From the IMG/VR virus record IMGVR_UViG_2529293015_000003: a stretch of 43,724 bases of DNA; one strand, written 5' to 3'. Shown here one piece after another: positions 5,292-11,009 of the stretch (positions are counted from its first letter, which is position 1; every line of letters begins with the position of its first letter). Made by a program: the position numbers and the translations under genes. The stretch comes from a virus. Lineage: Duplodnaviria; Heunggongvirae; Uroviricota; Caudoviricetes. A model generated the notes under the pieces. That model made no database searches. It was not told where the DNA came from and was given only the letters and a program-made list of their open reading frames with translations.

Positions 5292-5367
5292 TGGTGGCCC
5301 CTACCGGACTTGAACCGGTGACCGTGCGATTATGAGTCGCCAGCTCTAACCACTGAGCTAAAGGGCC
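5292..5367 (-). tRNA. tRNA-Ile2 type, anticodon CAT (lysidine-decoded AUA)
   Basis: 76 nt on the minus strand: GGCCCTT acceptor, D-arm TAGCTCAGTGGTTAGAGC, anticodon loop CTCATAA, T-arm ACCGG-TTCAAGT-CCGGT, encoded CCA; near-identical to E. coli ileX as I recall it. Confidence 0.85.
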
Positions 5368-6330: not shown

Positions 6331-6417
6331 TGGCGGAGAGTAATGGAATCGAACCATCATCGCTTGCGCAACGGGACGGCTTTCAAGACCGCTTGAGCAC
6401 CATGCTCCCTACTCTCC
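6331..6417 (-). tRNA. tRNA-like, class II (long variable arm), anticodon loop CUUGAAA (UGA, Ser-type); non-canonical D-arm
   Basis: 87 nt: perfect 7-bp acceptor GGAGAGT/ACTCTCC, discriminator G, encoded CCA, T-arm GATGG-TTCGATT-CCATT; the anticodon stem needs two G-U pairs and the D-loop is short. Confidence 0.3.
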
Positions 6418-6891: not shown

Positions 6892-6967
6892 TGGTGCCGA
6901 TTAACGGACTCGAACCGCTGACATCCTGCTTACAAGGCAGGCGCTCTACCAACTGAGCTAAACCGGC
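6892..6967 (-). tRNA. tRNA-Thr, anticodon TGT
   Basis: 76 nt: acceptor GCCGGTT/AATCGGC, D-arm TAGCTCAGTTGGTAGAGC, anticodon stem CCTGC/GCAGG with loop CTTGTAA, T-arm AGCGG-TTCGAGT-CCGTT, encoded CCA. Confidence 0.85.
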
Positions 6968-6969
6968 AT

Positions 6970-7045
6970 TGGCGATGGTGGATGGATTTGAACCATCGAC
7001 CCGTTGATTAACAGTCAACCGCTCTAACCGCTGAGCTACACCATC
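6970..7045 (-). tRNA. tRNA-Asn, anticodon GTT
   Basis: 76 nt: acceptor GATGGTG/CACCATC, D-arm TAGCTCAGCGGTTAGAGC, anticodon stem GTTGA/TCAAC with loop CTGTTAA, T-arm GATGG-TTCAAAT-CCATC, encoded CCA; 2 nt from tRNA-Thr. Confidence 0.9.
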
Positions 7046-7714
7046 ACTTGCCGGGTACGTCTCCGGCGAGGGCTTCCACCTCCGTATGCTTTTCGGCGCA
7101 CCGCGCCCTGGCTGCAATTCGGTAACAGGGGATGCATAACCCTGGCTTCCAGCGTGATTAGCGCCTTCAGCATGACGGGATATACCCGTAGCAAGACGTT
7201 ATTCCTAAATTGCTAAAAGCAATTGCTGTTACGCCGAATGAAAAAGGACGTAACAGGTAAGGACGCTGACCAAAAAGATGGCCCCTTCTCGCTCATCTGG
7301 TTAATCGAACCAGCGCCCTTACCTGTTGTGCCTCCCCGTTCCCTAATACACAGACGGGGACACTCTGCGGTCGATTTTTTGACGGGGGACGACTCATACC
7401 CCGTGGCGTCTGGCTTCTTAGGCCGCTACCATCATCAGATCATCGTTTGCATTTACTTTAATGGTCAGTTTCTAAACCGCCGCAAAGTCGCTAACCATGA
7501 CGAAAACCCTGAAAAAAACGCCCACCCGAAGATGGGCAAACTGGAAGCTCGTAACGCACTTCGGTGTTGCCACTTAGGCGTATGGTCAACCTGGCAACTC
7601 GGCGTCATGATGGGGAAGGAGTCACTACCCCGCCATACTTGCCGCCGCGCCTGTCGCGGCTAACAGCTAAATCGCTCTATAAATCACGATTCATTGAGGC
7701 GATATTACACTAAT

Positions 7715-7731
7715 AAATTTATTAGAGCAAT
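7715..7731 (-). promoter_or_regulatory. C1-repressor-type operator (17/17 match to the P1 consensus ATTGCTCTAATAAATTT on the minus strand)
   Basis: Plus strand reads AAATTTATTAGAGCAAT; overlaps the dmt stop codon (7722-7724). Confidence 0.55.
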
Positions 7732-10700
7732 ATACCTAAAACGTCATGAGCTACACCTCGAGTATCCCCCTTACAAGACACAGAACGTCTGGCAAAAAGA
7801 GGTTCCACTCTGAAGCCACTGTCATGATAAAGCTCTCTGATATTTGGCGCGCCACTGTTAGTAATTAGAACCTTTGCACCTCGGCGATGAGCATCCGTCA
7901 ACAGAGACACCAGGCGTTTTTGCTCTTCAAACTTAAAGTCATGACCGGAATAGTTCGTGAATCCCTCTGTATTTGGGAGCGGTTCATACGGCGGATCGCA
8001 AAAGATGACATCTCCTTCTCCGGCAGCTTCAATCACCGCAGCAAAATCACCACATACAAACTCAGAACGCCCTTCCGCACCAAGGAAGGCTTCCATCTCC
8101 TGCAATGGGAAATACGGAGTTTTATACTTCCCATAACCGACATTGAACTCACCGGCCTGGTTGTAACGCGTCAATCCGTTAAAACAATGTCGGTTCAGGA
8201 ACAAAAACGCCGCTGCGCGATGTAAATCATCATAGACTTGTTTGTTAAACGCATTCCGTACTGCCAGGTATCCTTCCTGTGTGTTGTAGTCCTGGAAGAA
8301 ACGATGTGCCAGAGTGATAAGTGAATGCGCCTCGCGTTGCAGAGTCTTGTAAAAGTTAATCAGGTCAGCATTCACATCATTTAGCAGATTTTCCTGGTAT
8401 CCGGCATTCATGAAGACAGCTCCGCCACCAACGAAAGGTTCAATCAGGCGCTTCCCTTCTGGCAAATAGCGAAAGATTTGTTCCAGAACACCAAATTTTC
8501 CACCAGCCCATTTGAATATGGACCGTTCGAATTCTGCCGCTGGTTTAACTTTTCGCTCTTTTGTTTCACTTCCTTCTTTCTGCCGACATACGGCCTTAGT
8601 AATCCGATCGCCAATCCAGCGCATTACTGGTATTGCCATACTATTGCCGATCGCTTTGTAACGCGGCCCGTCAGCTGCAAGCATCGCGGCCTCTTCTTCG
8701 CTTAAATCTGGATAGTGATTGCGAAGATATGCCAGTTCATCTGAATTAACTTTTTTACGCTTTTCCGTCGGGATCAACGTATGCCCATCAGGAAAACCTT
8801 GCAGCCTTTCACATTCGACAGGGGTAAGACGGCGGACAGCTACTTCTGCGTTTCTTACTTCATAGCAAACAGCTGTTGGATTTTTAGCCATTAGAGATGG
8901 TGAAGTATTCTTAGTTGCAGCATGTTGTGTACCGCTCATACGCTCAGGAAAAGCCAATGTAACAAGATGCTCATGGCTTTCTTGCTCACGTGCCCGCAAT
9001 GTACCATGCCCTTCTGACCAAAAACCTGCTCCTGTGCTGCTAAAAACGGCAAGGTCAGTGGCATCTTTAAAATCTCTTGCCTTTACTGTCGATGCGGTTT
9101 CATCGTCAATATATTCCCCAAATGCTGCCATCCTGAAAGCGTTTACGGCTTTCGTCGATTTCATACCGGGTGGCATGTCAGCGTGTAGGCATGGATTTAG
9201 GCTTTCGCCACTGATTGCAGCGCCATTTGCAATAATGGCGGAAGTGATTTCCTTCTTTTTTCGGCTCGGCGCAATATTCCGGCGCACGCCTTCGAACTCA
9301 AAAAGTACCGTTGCGGGATCGAGGTCTGTTCGAGCACTTGCGACAACAAACACGCGTCGGCGTCGTTGTGCCACTCCGAAGTATTGGGCATCAAGGATTC
9401 TCCAGGCCACTTTTCGCTGCGGTCCATAAATACAACCACACTGCGGCCACTTTGGAGCATGGCAACCGGTTTTGACATCCCACCGCCAGAACGCGTTACT
9501 TTTTCCTGATTCAGGTCGATCACCTGGTTCAAATGGCGCATCTTCTCCAGCCAATCCGGCAAGGAAACATCCGAAGGCGTTATCTGCCGATGACAAGACT
9601 CCTGGGACATTTTCCCAGACGATAACGGATGGTTTGAGAAATGACTCAGCCCGTTTGTCGTCAATTGCATTTGCAAGCTCCACATACTTTAAAGTTAGCG
9701 CGCCACGCTCATCATCAAGCCCACCACGTAATCCAGCGATACTGAATGCCTGACAGTTATGGACCACCGCACCATTGAGGATATAGGAATGATCACCTTC
9801 GACTTCTATGTTGTATACAGTATCTAGGCCTACCGATTTAAACTCTTTGACTGTTCGTAAAAGCATTCCATGAGCCAATCTTGATTTACGTGACAATTTC
9901 TGCGGGCAGATTGTTACCTGATAATAATTCCGTTGATTTACCACGCGATCCTCAATCACTTTTTTGGGCTCAACTTCAATAAAGCTGACCGAAGAAACAT
10001 AACCACAAGTCTGTGACAACTCCGCAACGCCCCAAGCAAGCGCAGGACTAACACTATTAATTCTAAATCCCGCTTTACCACTTGGTGTCCCATCAGTATC
10101 AAGATAGCCTTGTAAAAACACATGACGCAATGGATGCGACATCACCCATGCAGGGATACGCTTAGCATGGCTTAACTCGCCAAAATGTTCATTAAGCCAA
10201 TTGGCATAACACGTATCATTCAAGGTTACTTTGATGCTCCCTCGGATTTCGCTTGCCACGGAAAATATGTTTTCTGGTATGCGGCAATGAAACTTTCTCA
10301 ACTTCTGGCAATTTATGCCAAAAACAACCGCCTTCTTAGATTTACCTTTCCATCTCCTAATATATCCATCGCCAACATAAGCGCCCGCAAGATACATAGC
10401 CTGTTCTTCAGACAAGAACCGAGAACAAATATCTGGAGATGCAATATTGAAATTAGTTAGAGCACACCATTGATATCCCGGCATATCACATGCTGCTCGC
10501 CATTCCGGTTCAGACAACAACTCTCTCTTAAAATATGTGCCATTTTTCCGGGTGTTTTGGGCTTTCCACCGAACCGCCAGGAAGGGATGGTCATTGGTTG
10601 TTCTTATACCTAAAGGCTGCCCAACGGCATTAAGTAACCCCGTATTAGCTATTTTTGAACCAACTCTTTTTACTTGTTGTAACCGCCCGAGATGACTGAC

Positions 10701-11009
10701 TACGTAATCGCCAGGGCAAACATCTTCTATTGGTTTATAACCATTTTTACAAAGAACCATATGCCCCGCGGTAAAACATGGTGTCCCTCCCACCAGCACA
10801 TCAGGGGCTTCAATTTCTCCAGCCTGGACTTTTTGGGCGAGTTTTGTCATGTCGCCAAGGTTGGCGACATGGGGCCAGCGGTGCGCAAGAACGGCAGATG
10901 GAAAAGGCTCTATTTCAGCAAACCACGCCGGACGCATACCCAACGGTTCCCAGGCAATACTCGCGGCTTCAATTCCACTGCAAACAGATCCATAGCACAG
11001 TTCTTTCAC
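7722..11009 (-). CDS. dmt: Bifunctional DNA methyltransferase: N-terminal C5-cytosine MTase (intein-interrupted) fused to C-terminal Dam-like N6-adenine MTase
   Basis: C5 motifs: [10 protein letters not shown] (I), [12 protein letters not shown] (IV, split by the intein), IVWENVPGV (VI), [10 protein letters not shown] (VIII), [17 protein letters not shown] (IX/X). Dam-like C-terminus: [25 protein letters not shown] start overlaps the rdgC stop (GTGA). Confidence 0.85.
9756..10778 (-). mobile_element. Intein (341 codons) with LAGLIDADG homing-endonuclease domain, inserted in the PCQ catalytic motif of the C5-MTase
   Basis: Begins Cys78 (CFTAGHMVL, block A), block [20 protein letters not shown] motifs [10 protein letters not shown] and [10 protein letters not shown], block [13 protein letters not shown], block G NGAVVHN, +1 Cys; excision joins GGTP to CQAFSIAG. 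Confidence 0.85.

What the first reader, a model, noticed from the sequence alone, without database searches (positions are those of the whole stretch)
9756..10778. LAGLIDADG intein inserted exactly at the catalytic PCQ motif of a C5-cytosine methyltransferase
The dmt-like ORF reads ...VLVGGTP | CFTAGHMVL ... NGAVVHN | [12 protein letters not shown].... Removing the 341 codons between the bars reconstitutes [12 protein letters not shown], the motif IV of C5-MTases, so the +1 Cys that drives splicing is also the methyltransferase's catalytic cysteine. The insert has every intein block (A, B, two LAGLIDADG motifs, F, G ending in HN) and looks AT-richer than the flanking extein by eye. Inteins are classically found in replication/repair enzymes; I do not recall one being described in a phage dmt gene, so this may be an undescribed intein allele that makes MTase activity conditional on splicing.
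Basis: partly seen in the sequence, partly recalled or inferred. Interest (0 to 1): 0.85.

Follow-up and report, generated by a model that had tools for sequence, protein, structure and literature searches.

The report
Intein in P1-like phage Dmt methyltransferase
The DNA methyltransferase gene of this P1-like E. coli phage-plasmid is interrupted, exactly at the enzyme's catalytic cysteine, by a standard self-splicing, mobile protein element (an intein with a homing endonuclease) that is common in sequence databases, is never annotated as an intein in the records I opened, and was in none of the papers I could search.

Summary
ORF 7722-11009 (-) encodes a 1095-aa Dmt. Residues 78-418 (window 9756-10778) form a 341-aa class-1 intein with a LAGLIDADG homing endonuclease. 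It has Cys1, TxxH, two LAGLIDADG motifs with their acidic residues, and a C-terminal His-Asn followed by Cys+1.

Reference P1 Dmt (754 aa) aligns with one clean 341-residue gap at P|C. The rejoined GGTPCQAFS aligns with M.HhaI FPCQAFS, so Cys+1 is the methyltransferase nucleophile (Cys81 in M.HhaI). The predicted structure (pLDDT 92.8) matches PI-SceI and other endonuclease-bearing inteins.

The intein is polymorphic:
- It is in 133 of 497 P1-like plasmids and 152 of 491 dmt-carrying complete E. coli genomes, including phage RCS47 and one lab "P1".
- It is less diverse than its host gene and is scattered across the extein trees.
- It carries private flanking synonymous variants.

This pattern fits spread by homing, but ordinary recombination is not excluded. 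Relatives occupy the same site in C5-methyltransferases of many bacterial phyla.

The mechanism is ordinary. The host protein and insertion site appear undescribed. No searchable paper mentions it, and database records call the protein only "Dam family methyltransferase". Splicing and cleavage remain untested.

The parts
7722..11009 (-). dmt precursor coding sequence (1095 aa, 121.8 kDa): N-extein, intein, C-extein
   Evidence: The identical protein is in NCBI, named 'Dam family site-specific DNA-(adenine-N6)-methyltransferase'.
10779..11009 (-). N-extein (aa 1-77): start of the C5-cytosine methyltransferase domain, ending ...VLVGGTP, with Pro at position -1
9756..10778 (-). Intein (341 aa, 38.3 kDa, pI 9.3): Hint splicing domain split by a LAGLIDADG homing endonuclease domain
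   Evidence: Pfam and NCBIfam hits. Clean gap against P1 Dmt. AlphaFold pLDDT 92.8. Foldseek best matches are PI-SceI, the Tli VMA intein, PI-PfuI and PDB 2cw7 ('intein homing endonuclease II').
10740..10778 (-). Intein block A ([13 protein letters not shown]). Cys1 is the nucleophile for the N-S acyl shift.
   Evidence: C1, F2 and G5 are invariant in 13 relatives.
10572..10610 (-). Intein block B ([13 protein letters not shown]), with the TxxH motif formed by Thr61 and His64
   Evidence: T61 and H64 are invariant.
10359..10397 (-). LAGLIDADG motif 1 ([13 protein letters not shown]), with catalytic Asp137
   Evidence: G132 and G138 are invariant and D137 is at least 90% conserved.
10083..10121 (-). 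LAGLIDADG motif 2 ([13 protein letters not shown]), with catalytic Asp229. The conserved Lys206 lies at 10146-10169.
9756..9821 (-). Intein blocks F and G ([22 protein letters not shown]), with penultimate His340 and terminal Asn341
   Evidence: TIGR01443 hit. Alignment to the Spl DnaX mini-intein C-terminus. N341 is invariant.
9753..9755 (-). Cys+1 codon (TGT). It is the splice-junction nucleophile and also the motif IV (PCQ) catalytic cysteine of the C5-methyltransferase.
   Evidence: The spliced sequence aligns [12 protein letters not shown] with M.HhaI GFPCQAFSISG, chain positions 78-89, so the Cys is Cys81.
8760..9752 (-). C-extein, remainder of the C5-methyltransferase domain (ENV, QRRR, target-recognition region, [23 protein letters not shown])
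   Evidence: PF00145 at 104 bits and TIGR00675. Motif alignment to M.HhaI.
7743..8522 (-). C-extein, Dam-type N6-adenine methyltransferase domain (aa 830-1089 of the precursor)
   Evidence: PF02086 at 192 bits and TIGR00571 at 248.8 bits
10763..10794 (-). DNA around the upstream junction. The last 16 nt of the N-extein (CTG GTG GGA GGG ACA CCA) carry 6 synonymous differences from the intein-less alleles of otherwise the same background. Position -1 is A in 30/30 intein-bearing alleles and T in 72/72 closely related intein-less alleles. I read this as a co-conversion tract.
11006..11911 (-). hrdC/rdgC, upstream gene of the operon. Its stop codon overlaps the dmt GTG start (GTGA).
11904..12188 (-). 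uhr, first gene of the operon
   Evidence: The first 30 nt of P1 uhr match the window exactly at 12159-12188. The lower boundary (11904) assumes the 285-nt length annotated in P1.
12260..12276 (-). C1 repressor operator Odmt (Op68), identical to P1. It places dmt, and so the intein, under prophage repression.
7704..7731 (-). Divalent C1 operator Oban, overlapping the dmt stop codon

Best explanation
The segment is a genuine class-1 intein (Hint splicing domain plus a double-motif LAGLIDADG homing endonuclease). It sits in the N-terminal C5-cytosine methyltransferase domain of the bifunctional Dmt protein of a P1-like phage-plasmid, between Pro77 and the motif IV catalytic cysteine.

Inferred mechanism. 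dmt is transcribed with uhr and hrdC from the C1-repressed promoter when the prophage is derepressed. A 121.8 kDa precursor is made. Cys1 performs the N-S acyl shift at the Pro-Cys1 bond. Cys+1 attacks the thioester, Asn341 cyclises, and an S-N shift joins the exteins. The products are an 83.5 kDa Dmt with an intact GGTPCQ active site and a free 38.3 kDa endonuclease.

The C5 domain cannot be active before splicing, because its nucleophile is separated from the rest of motif IV. The C-terminal Dam domain may not depend on splicing.

At the DNA level, the free endonuclease is expected to cut intein-less dmt alleles at the GGTP|CQ coding site when two P1-like elements share a cell. Repair from the intein-bearing allele would then copy the intein together with short flanking tracts (homing).

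What is shown: the anatomy, all catalytic residues, the fold, the presence/absence polymorphism, and population patterns that fit homing. What is inferred: splicing, cleavage, and present-day endonuclease activity.
For: - Anatomy and coordinates.
- Domain models LAGLIDADG_3, Hint_2 and intein_Cterm.
- One clean 341-aa gap against P1 Dmt, with 98.5% identity elsewhere.
- Cys+1 aligns with M.HhaI Cys81, and the ENV, QRR and GNS motifs are intact.
- In 13 relatives of 24-52% identity, C1, T61, H64, K206 and N341 are invariant, and D137 and D229 are at least 90% conserved.
- The AlphaFold model has pLDDT 92.8 and pTM 0.89. The best PDB matches are PI-SceI (E 7e-17), the Tli and Pho VMA inteins, PI-PfuI and PDB 2cw7 ('intein homing endonuclease II'), followed by I-DmoI and I-SceI.
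- Polymorphism: the intein DNA is in 5 phage records and 133 plasmids. The empty junction is contiguous in 13 phage records and 361 of 497 plasmids. It is in 152 of 491 dmt-positive complete E. coli genomes.
- Mobility signature: intein nucleotide diversity is 0.58%, against 1.4% for the adjacent C-extein and several percent for the N-extein in the same elements.
- Intein-bearing alleles are scattered on extein trees, needing at least 5 and 14 state changes.
- The same intein occurs with two different target-recognition regions.
- Variants at -22, -48, -104 and -118 occur only in intein-bearing alleles, and position -1 is a fixed difference, 30/30 against 72/72.
- All 30 copies keep a full open frame, with 14 synonymous and 15 nonsynonymous segregating sites, giving pN/pS of about 0.3.
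- Relatives sit at the same site in C5-methyltransferases of many phyla.
Against: - There is no experimental evidence here for splicing or DNA cleavage.
- The -1 residue is Pro. From my own knowledge, not verified here, Pro at -1 is poorly tolerated by several model inteins, so splicing could be slow or conditional.
- Pfam Intein_splicing is below its cut-off, and Hint_2 only just reaches its own.
- An open frame does not prove splicing. Translation must cross the intein to reach the Dam domain, which may be the selected function.
- The patchy distribution and the flanking-marker pattern could come from ordinary homologous recombination among P1-like plasmids after a single invasion.
- pN/pS of about 0.3 on 29 segregating sites is weak evidence.
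- At least one copy looks frameshifted (1022-nt match under a split CDS annotation), and 7 of 133 plasmid matches are partial.
- Whether the P1 C5 domain methylates DNA at all is itself only 'perhaps' in the P1 annotation.
Confidence: 0.85

Rival explanations
1. The intein still splices, but its endonuclease is no longer active, or all reachable targets are resistant. On this view the present 27-31% frequency and the scattered distribution reflect one past invasion followed by ordinary homologous recombination and plasmid exchange among P1-like elements, not ongoing homing.
For: Every closely related intein-less allele differs from the intein-bearing flanks at position -1 (72/72), and often at -4 and -7. 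That pattern is what fixation among susceptible sites with only resistant sites remaining would leave. P1-like plasmids are visibly mosaic, with N-extein identity to the window of 83-100% beside a 99% identical intein. Selection on the intein is only moderate, pN/pS about 0.3. Some copies are decayed or partial.
Against: Both catalytic Asp residues, Lys206 and the LAGLIDADG glycines are intact here and conserved in relatives down to 24% identity. All 30 sampled copies keep the full 1023-nt frame. The intein is 2-10 times less diverse than its flanks, which implies it shares a more recent ancestor than the host gene does.
Confidence: 0.3
2. The insert is a former intein that no longer splices. 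The C5 domain is permanently disabled, and the 122 kDa fusion persists because its C-terminal Dam domain still provides the adenine methylation that P1 needs for packaging.
For: Pro at -1 may hinder the first splicing step (my own knowledge, not verified here). Only the Dam function of Dmt is established, and the C5 activity is annotated as 'perhaps' (PMC12707154). The reading frame would be kept in any case, because translation must pass through the intein to reach the Dam domain.
Against: All splicing residues are present and conserved across the family: Cys1, Thr61, His64, His340, Asn341 and Cys+1. The same Pro|Cys junction is kept in relatives from many phyla, which is hard to explain unless they splice. 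All C5 motifs in the exteins are intact.
Confidence: 0.08
3. The segment is an ordinary conserved domain of this methyltransferase family, or an assembly or annotation artefact.
For: Database records name the protein simply as a Dam family methyltransferase and show no intein feature.
Against: Hundreds of independent records lack the segment and show a clean 341-aa gap. More than 150 independent complete genomes contain it. Its fold and motifs are those of an intein with an endonuclease.
Confidence: 0.01

Closest known systems
PI-SceI (S. cerevisiae VMA1 intein) and the archaeal VMA and PI-PfuI inteins with LAGLIDADG endonucleases
   Same: The architecture is the same: a Hint domain interrupted by a double-motif LAGLIDADG endonuclease. 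It has Cys1, TxxH, terminal His-Asn and a Cys+1 nucleophile, and it is inserted at a catalytic site of the host enzyme. These are the best structural matches, with Foldseek E 7e-17 to 2e-9.
   Different: Sequence identity is only 11-17%. At 341 aa it is smaller than PI-SceI (454 aa by my own knowledge; the matched PI-SceI chains are 394-448 residues). The host is a phage/plasmid DNA methyltransferase rather than an ATPase or polymerase. The -1 residue is Pro.
Inteins of actinophage DNA methylases (DNMT-1/2 of mycobacteriophages, PMC5050341; the Dorothy_75 family, PMC9957025)
   Same: These are also LAGLIDADG-type inteins in orphan phage DNA methyltransferases. They are patchily distributed among homologues, and the intein phylogeny disagrees with the host-gene phylogeny.
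   Different: Those hosts are N6/N4 (amino) methyltransferases of phages of Actinobacteria. This host is a C5-cytosine methyltransferase domain of an enterobacterial phage-plasmid, and the insertion is at the motif IV catalytic Cys. None of their sequences was returned as a relative.
Intein-less Dmt of reference phage P1 (NC_005856, YP_006537.1, 754 aa)
   Same: It is 98.5% identical over both exteins. The operon (uhr-hrdC-dmt) and the C1 operators Odmt and Oban are the same.
   Different: It lacks the 341-aa intein. It has CCT rather than CCA as the Pro codon at the junction, plus other synonymous differences within 16 nt, and Trp instead of Gly at position -4.
Same-site inteins in other bacterial C5-methyltransferases (Mannheimia haemolytica 'Hint domain-containing protein' P0011, Metarhizobium album L113, Lachnospiraceae, Pseudoscardovia, Arthrobacter and others)
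   Same: The insertion point is the same, immediately before the motif IV Cys: GGTP|CQ, FGSP|CQ, SPD|CK/CT, SPE|CT. The architecture is the same, and they are 27-52% identical to this intein.
   Different: The host methyltransferases and taxa differ. The M. haemolytica host gene is truncated just after the intein. As far as the sources show, these exist only as automated annotations.

Membership tests
Intein (canonical class 1) | In-frame insertion that is absent from orthologues, whose removal restores the uninterrupted conserved host sequence | tested here: met
   P1 Dmt aligns with a single gap at columns 78-418. The empty junction is contiguous in 13 phage records and 361 plasmids.
Intein (canonical class 1) | N-terminal Cys or Ser (block A) and the TxxH motif (block B) | tested here: met
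   Cys1, Thr61 and His64 are present and invariant in 13 relatives.
Intein (canonical class 1) | C-terminal blocks F and G ending in His-Asn, followed by Cys, Ser or Thr at +1 | tested here: met
   ...VVHN|C. TIGR01443 scores 25.9-28.9 bits against a cut-off of 15.6. It aligns with the Spl DnaX mini-intein C-terminus.
Intein (canonical class 1) | Hint (Hedgehog/intein) fold of the splicing domain | tested here: met
   The model has pLDDT 92.8. Foldseek matches PI-SceI, the Tli VMA intein, PI-PfuI and Prp8 inteins. Pfam Hint_2 scores 28.5 against 28.4. Intein_splicing is below its cut-off at 22.1 against 35.8.
Intein (canonical class 1) | Autocatalytic protein splicing that yields ligated exteins and a free intein | not testable with these tools
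   This needs expression followed by western blot or mass spectrometry. The predicted products are 83.5 and 38.3 kDa from a 121.8 kDa precursor.
LAGLIDADG homing endonuclease (double-motif, intein-borne) | Two LAGLIDADG motifs, each ending in a catalytic acidic residue | tested here: met
   [11 protein letters not shown] (Asp137) and [11 protein letters not shown] (Asp229). Both are conserved in relatives. PF14528 scores 36.6 bits against 22.5.
LAGLIDADG homing endonuclease (double-motif, intein-borne) | Pseudo-dimeric alpha-beta-beta-alpha-beta-beta-alpha fold | tested here: met
   The helix and strand order over residues 124-292 of the model fits. Foldseek matches I-DmoI, I-SceI, I-AniI and I-OnuI.
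LAGLIDADG homing endonuclease (double-motif, intein-borne) | Site-specific cleavage of the intein-less allele and biased inheritance (homing) | not testable with these tools
   Only indirect evidence is available: low intein diversity against the exteins, scattered distribution, private flanking variants and a fixed -1 difference.
C5-cytosine DNA methyltransferase (host domain, PF00145) | Motif IV PCQ with the catalytic Cys, plus motifs VI (ENV), VIII (QxRxR), IX and X | tested here: met
   The motifs are complete only after in-silico splicing. Alignment to M.HhaI places Cys+1 on Cys81, and ENV, QRRRR and GNSMAIPV are present. PF00145 scores 104 bits. m5C activity of P1 Dmt is annotated only as 'perhaps'.
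Bacterial intein-like (BIL) domain (considered, not adopted) | (From my own knowledge.) A Hint domain without an endonuclease, usually in variable regions of non-conserved proteins, and not requiring a +1 nucleophile or clean splicing | tested here: not met
   This element has an endonuclease domain, sits at the most conserved motif of the host enzyme, and has His-Asn|Cys.

The most novel reading that the evidence does not exclude
The intein is an active homing element now spreading through the P1-like phage-plasmids of Enterobacteriaceae, and it also acts as a post-translational switch. On this reading the Dam domain works in the precursor, while the C5 activity appears only after a slow or conditional splicing step at the unusual Pro-Cys junction. 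Such a step could be sensitive to redox state through Cys1 and Cys+1, or to DNA. This would time m5C modification during lytic growth. It would also give a natural intein system in E. coli and phage P1, a host generally treated as intein-free (my own knowledge).
Probability: 0.12. Interest if true: 0.75.

Novelty: new member of a known kind. Interest (0 to 1): 0.5.

Why it matters
- **A new host and site for inteins.** It adds a C5-cytosine DNA methyltransferase, and an insertion site directly at the motif IV catalytic cysteine. The same site is used by related inteins in many bacterial phyla.
- **A natural intein in a tractable system.** It places a natural, polymorphic intein in phage P1 and E. 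coli, one of the most tractable genetic systems. About 3% of complete E. coli genomes carry it, and one sequenced lab "P1" strain already has it. Intein homing, co-conversion, resistance of target sites and splicing at a Pro(-1) junction could all be measured directly with standard P1 crosses.
- **A practical annotation point.** Hundreds of database records call a 1095-aa protein simply "Dam family methyltransferase". Methylome or defence-evasion predictions for these phage-plasmids should take into account that the C5 domain needs splicing.

Tried and rejected
- **Literature.** All ten full-text searches found no paper describing this intein. The terms paired 'intein' with P1-like, dmt, phage P1, RCS47, cytosine methyltransferase, intein-containing DNA methyltransferase, C5 and cytosine-5 terms, phage-plasmid, Punavirus, and motif IV. 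Hits that looked relevant were not. The main text of the 2015 intein survey (PMC4760082) does not mention methyltransferases, and its supplements are not held. Subscription-journal papers and intein databases could not be searched, so 'undescribed' is provisional.
- **Pro at -1.** An attempt to read a paper on extein tolerance failed because it is not held. That point therefore rests on my own knowledge.
- **PDB by sequence.** The sequence search found only the C-terminal 42 residues, matching a mini-intein. The fold search was needed to recover the full match.
- **Tree building.** The neighbour-joining trees with parsimony counts are crude and are confounded by recombination.
- **Ungapped N-extein diversity.** The figures are inflated by one allele with an indel (L006), so I use them only qualitatively.
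- **Rejected readings.** I considered and rejected a BIL domain, an ordinary methyltransferase domain and an assembly artefact.
- **The fixed -1 difference.** I considered whether the T at -1 proves endonuclease resistance. It does not, because co-conversion of the base next to the insertion explains it equally well.
- **Empty sites with the intein-type core.** Intein-less sites with the core ACACCA|TGTCAG do exist, but only in three divergent Dmt-family genes and not in P1-like dmt.
Full report
**1. The observation**

The window has one long ORF on the minus strand, 7722-11009, of 1095 aa with a GTG start. Its translation reads ...[22 protein letters not shown]...[20 protein letters not shown]. 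The segment between the bars is residues 78-418, which is 341 codons and window 9756-10778. These are exactly the coordinates in the finding.

Removing the segment leaves a 754-aa protein containing [12 protein letters not shown]. The insert has 42.8% G+C against 48.7% for the rest of the gene, and the sliding profile dips to 0.42-0.44 across it.

**2. What the insert is**

Profile searches on the 341-aa segment give these scores:

| Model | Score (bits) | Cut-off (bits) |
|---|---|---|
| Pfam LAGLIDADG_3 | 36.6 | 22.5 |
| Pfam Hint_2 | 28.5 | 28.4 |
| NCBIfam intein_Cterm (TIGR01443) | 25.9 | 15.6 |
| Pfam Intein_splicing | 22.1 | 35.8 (below cut-off) |

There are also weak matches to intein-containing RNR, GyrA, RFC and DnaB models.

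The canonical blocks are all present:
- Block A is [13 protein letters not shown], with Cys1.
- Block B is [13 protein letters not shown], with Thr61 and His64.
- LAGLIDADG motif 1 is [11 protein letters not shown], with Asp137.
- LAGLIDADG motif 2 is [11 protein letters not shown], with Asp229. The conserved Lys206 is also present.
- Block F is [15 protein letters not shown].
- Block G is NGAVVHN, with His340 and Asn341, followed by Cys+1.

I aligned it with 12 relatives of 24-52% identity. C1, T61, H64, G132, G138, K206, G224, G230 and N341 are invariant, and D137 and D229 are at least 90% conserved.

An AlphaFold model built on that alignment is confident, with pLDDT 92.8 and pTM 0.89. Its best PDB matches are the bifunctional inteins PI-SceI (E 7e-17), the Tli and Pho VMA inteins, PI-PfuI and PDB 2cw7 ('intein homing endonuclease II'). 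Free-standing LAGLIDADG enzymes such as I-DmoI, I-SceI and I-AniI follow. A sequence-only PDB search recovered just the C-terminal splicing region, against the Spl DnaX mini-intein.

**3. The host protein and the insertion site**

The exteins carry a C5-cytosine methyltransferase domain (PF00145, 104 bits) followed by a Dam-type N6-adenine methyltransferase domain (PF02086, 192 bits; TIGR00571, 249 bits). This is Dmt of phage P1.

The reference P1 protein (NC_005856, 754 aa) is annotated as a 'bifunctional DNA methyltransferase; methylates DNA at N6 adenine in GATC sequences and perhaps at C5 cytosine'. It aligns with the window protein with a single gap at columns 78-418 and 98.5% identity elsewhere.

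The spliced sequence aligns with M.HhaI as [12 protein letters not shown] against GFPCQAFSISG. This puts Cys+1 on HhaI Cys81, the nucleophile that attacks C6 of cytosine (established enzymology). Motifs [23 protein letters not shown] and GNSMAIPV are intact.

The operon context matches P1:
- The C1 operator Odmt is identical, at 12260-12276.
- uhr starts at 12188.
- hrdC/rdgC spans 11006-11911, and its stop codon overlaps the dmt GTG start.
- The divalent C1 operator Oban lies over the dmt stop codon, at 7704-7731.

**4. Distribution**

The intein DNA is found at 95-100% identity in:
- 5 phage records: RCS47, vB_EcoM-Ro157c2YLVW, and one 'P1 del res del mod' lab isolate, OP279344;
- 133 PLSDB plasmids of Escherichia, Salmonella and Shigella.

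A 450-nt query of the rejoined exteins is contiguous, meaning intein-less, in 13 phage records (P1, P7, SJ46, JL22 and others) and in 361 of 497 plasmids.

Among 5,426 complete E. coli genomes, 491 carry the dmt Dam region and 152 carry the intein. So roughly 27-31% of P1-like dmt genes are intein-bearing.

None of the records I opened annotates an intein. The exact protein is in NCBI as 'Dam family site-specific DNA-(adenine-N6)-methyltransferase'. Only fragments are auto-named 'LAGLIDADG family homing endonuclease' or 'Hint domain-containing protein'.

**5. Evidence bearing on mobility**

I compared 30 intein-bearing and 72 closely related intein-less alleles, drawn from IMG/VR, the reference phages and the window.

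(a) All 30 inteins are full length with no stop codons. They have 29 segregating sites, 14 synonymous and 15 nonsynonymous, giving pN/pS of about 0.3.

(b) Intein nucleotide diversity is 0.58%. In the same elements the adjacent C-extein has 1.4% and the N-extein several percent. One allele (L006) has an N-extein only 83% identical to the window's, next to a 99.4% identical intein.

(c) On neighbour-joining trees of the exteins, the intein-bearing state needs at least 5 changes (N-extein) or 14 changes (C-extein). The intein also occurs with two different target-recognition regions.

(d) The flanks show a clear pattern:
- The Pro codon at -1 is CCA in 30/30 intein-bearing alleles and CCT in 72/72 intein-less ones.
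- Variants at -22, -48, -104 and -118 are private to intein-bearing alleles.
- From +24 to +160, the intein-bearing alleles are almost uniform for a haplotype held by only about a third of intein-less alleles.
- The window's own class carries CTG GTG GGA GGG ACA CCA. That is six synonymous differences within 16 nt from intein-less alleles of otherwise the same background.

A scan of IMG/VR found 94 intein-less sites with T at -1. It found only three with the intein-type core ACACCA|TGTCAG, and all three are in divergent Dmt-family genes, not in P1-like dmt.

Together these patterns are what homing from a diverged donor with co-conversion of flanking markers would leave. They do not prove that the endonuclease is active today. 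Ordinary recombination after one invasion could give much of the same picture. The fixed -1 difference is explained equally well by co-conversion or by resistance of the remaining empty sites.

**6. Relatives elsewhere**

The large protein search returned 26 hits, and nearly all carry PF00145. Where the junction is visible, the intein lies immediately before the motif IV Cys. Examples are GGTP|CQ, GGVP|CQ, GGSP|CQ and ASPE|CT.

A scan of one genome per species found about 35 full-length relatives. They come from Pseudomonadota, Bacillota, Actinomycetota, Bacteroidota, Chloroflexota, Cyanobacteriota, Verrucomicrobiota and others. Again they sit at FGSP|CQ, SPD|CK/CT, SPE|CT or SFP|CT. This is therefore a broadly distributed insertion site in C5-methyltransferases, and the P1-like copy is its enterobacterial member.

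**7. How it most likely works**

This section is inferred from established intein chemistry. On prophage derepression the uhr-hrdC-dmt operon is expressed and the 121.8 kDa precursor is made.

Class-1 splicing would then proceed in four steps:
1. An N-S acyl shift at Pro77-Cys1.
2. Trans-thioesterification to Cys+1.
3. Cyclisation of Asn341.
4. An S-N shift that joins the exteins.

This yields 83.5 kDa Dmt and a basic 38.3 kDa endonuclease. The C5 active site exists only after splicing. The Dam domain, which supplies the GATC methylation P1 needs at pac in dam- hosts (PMC12707154), is a separate C-terminal domain and may not depend on splicing. That could make the intein nearly cost-free to the phage.

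The Pro at -1 is conserved across much of the family. From my own knowledge it is unfavourable for several model inteins. This is the one mechanistic oddity worth testing.

**8. Comparison with what is known, and novelty**

Mechanistically this is a standard intein with a LAGLIDADG endonuclease of the PI-SceI type. Inteins in phage DNA methylases are already published, but for N6/N4-class enzymes of actinophages (PMC5050341, PMC9957025).

I found no paper that mentions an intein in P1 dmt, in P1-like phage-plasmids, or at motif IV of a C5-methyltransferase. The main text of the 2015 bacterial and archaeal intein survey does not mention methyltransferases. Intein databases and subscription journals could not be checked.

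I therefore rate it a new member of a known kind. It is correct, unannotated, apparently undescribed, and experimentally convenient, but it is not a new mechanism.

**9. Verdict**

- **Observation:** confirmed.
- **Interpretation:** supported, with three corrections. The intein is common rather than rare. Methylase inteins are not unprecedented. Only the C5 half of Dmt can be conditional on splicing.
- **Confidence by claim:** about 0.97 that it is an intein, about 0.85 that it splices, and about 0.6 that its endonuclease is currently active.
- **Interest:** 0.5.

Noticed in passing
window 17808-18617 (+): A 269-aa ORF with a T5orf172 / GIY-YIG-like nuclease domain (PF10544, 26.9 bits). It corresponds to the gene that lies between the RepB-family initiator and parA in plasmid CP057476, where it is annotated 'GIY-YIG nuclease family protein'; window 18786-19982 is a 398-aa ORF, the same length as that parA. 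It may be a free-standing homing-endonuclease-like gene in the same element.
   Followed up: partly
window 14670-15857 (+): An IS91-family transposase (Y2_Tnp plus Zn_Tnp_IS91), inserted a few kb from the dmt operon.
   Followed up: partly
window 5292-5367, 6331-6417, 6892-6967, 6970-7045 (all -): Four tRNA genes lie downstream of dmt: Met(cat), Ser(tga), Thr(tgt) and Asn(gtt). In the stretch I opened, the reference P1 record annotates only Asn and Thr just downstream of dmt.
   Followed up: no
L135 2501-3520 (Ruminococcus MAG); L148 2501-3529 (Flexilinea MAG): Related inteins are inserted directly after 'WENV', which looks like motif VI of C5-methyltransferases; I did not confirm the identity of these host genes. 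The junctions read WENV|CF...HN|CGA[YF]SS.
   Followed up: no
P0011 (Mannheimia haemolytica, 439 aa; seen on 578 contigs): This is a same-site intein, but the C-extein stops about 20 residues after the intein (…VVHN|CQSDKGGTVKASGGGFEWRE). The host methyltransferase gene is therefore truncated while the intein ORF is kept across many isolates.
   Followed up: partly
L001 (NC_005856, reference P1) dmt codon 74: Reference P1 reads VLVWGTP|CQ, with Trp instead of Gly four residues before the catalytic Cys. It is the only one of the 105 alleles tabulated with this change.
   Followed up: no
L003 (OP279344, 'Escherichia phage P1 isolate del res del mod'): A sequenced laboratory P1 derivative carries the intein, together with a shorter and different target-recognition region in the C5 domain (Dmt of 1013 aa). 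An intein-bearing lab strain therefore already exists for experiments.
   Followed up: partly
NZ_CP027223.1 35242-36263 (E. coli 2015C-3101 plasmid): The intein match is 1022 nt rather than 1023, and the region is annotated as two CDSs. This is probably a frameshifted, decaying copy. In addition, 7 of 133 plasmid matches cover less than 80% of the intein.
   Followed up: no
NZ_CP007394.1 2164412-2167699 (E. coli ST2747 chromosome): A dmt whose intein and last 1,179 nt are 100% identical to the window's lies in a record labelled as a chromosome, next to truncated P1 tail and baseplate genes. In total, 5 of the 153 intein matches in complete E. coli genomes are on chromosomes. These are either integrated or degraded P1-like elements, or assembly joins.
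   Followed up: partly
L185, L186, L187 (IMG/VR): Three divergent Dmt-family C5-methyltransferase genes have an empty site whose core is identical to the window's intein flanks, ACACCA|TGTCAGGCATTCAG. They could be naive targets, or relatives of the original donor background.
   Followed up: partly
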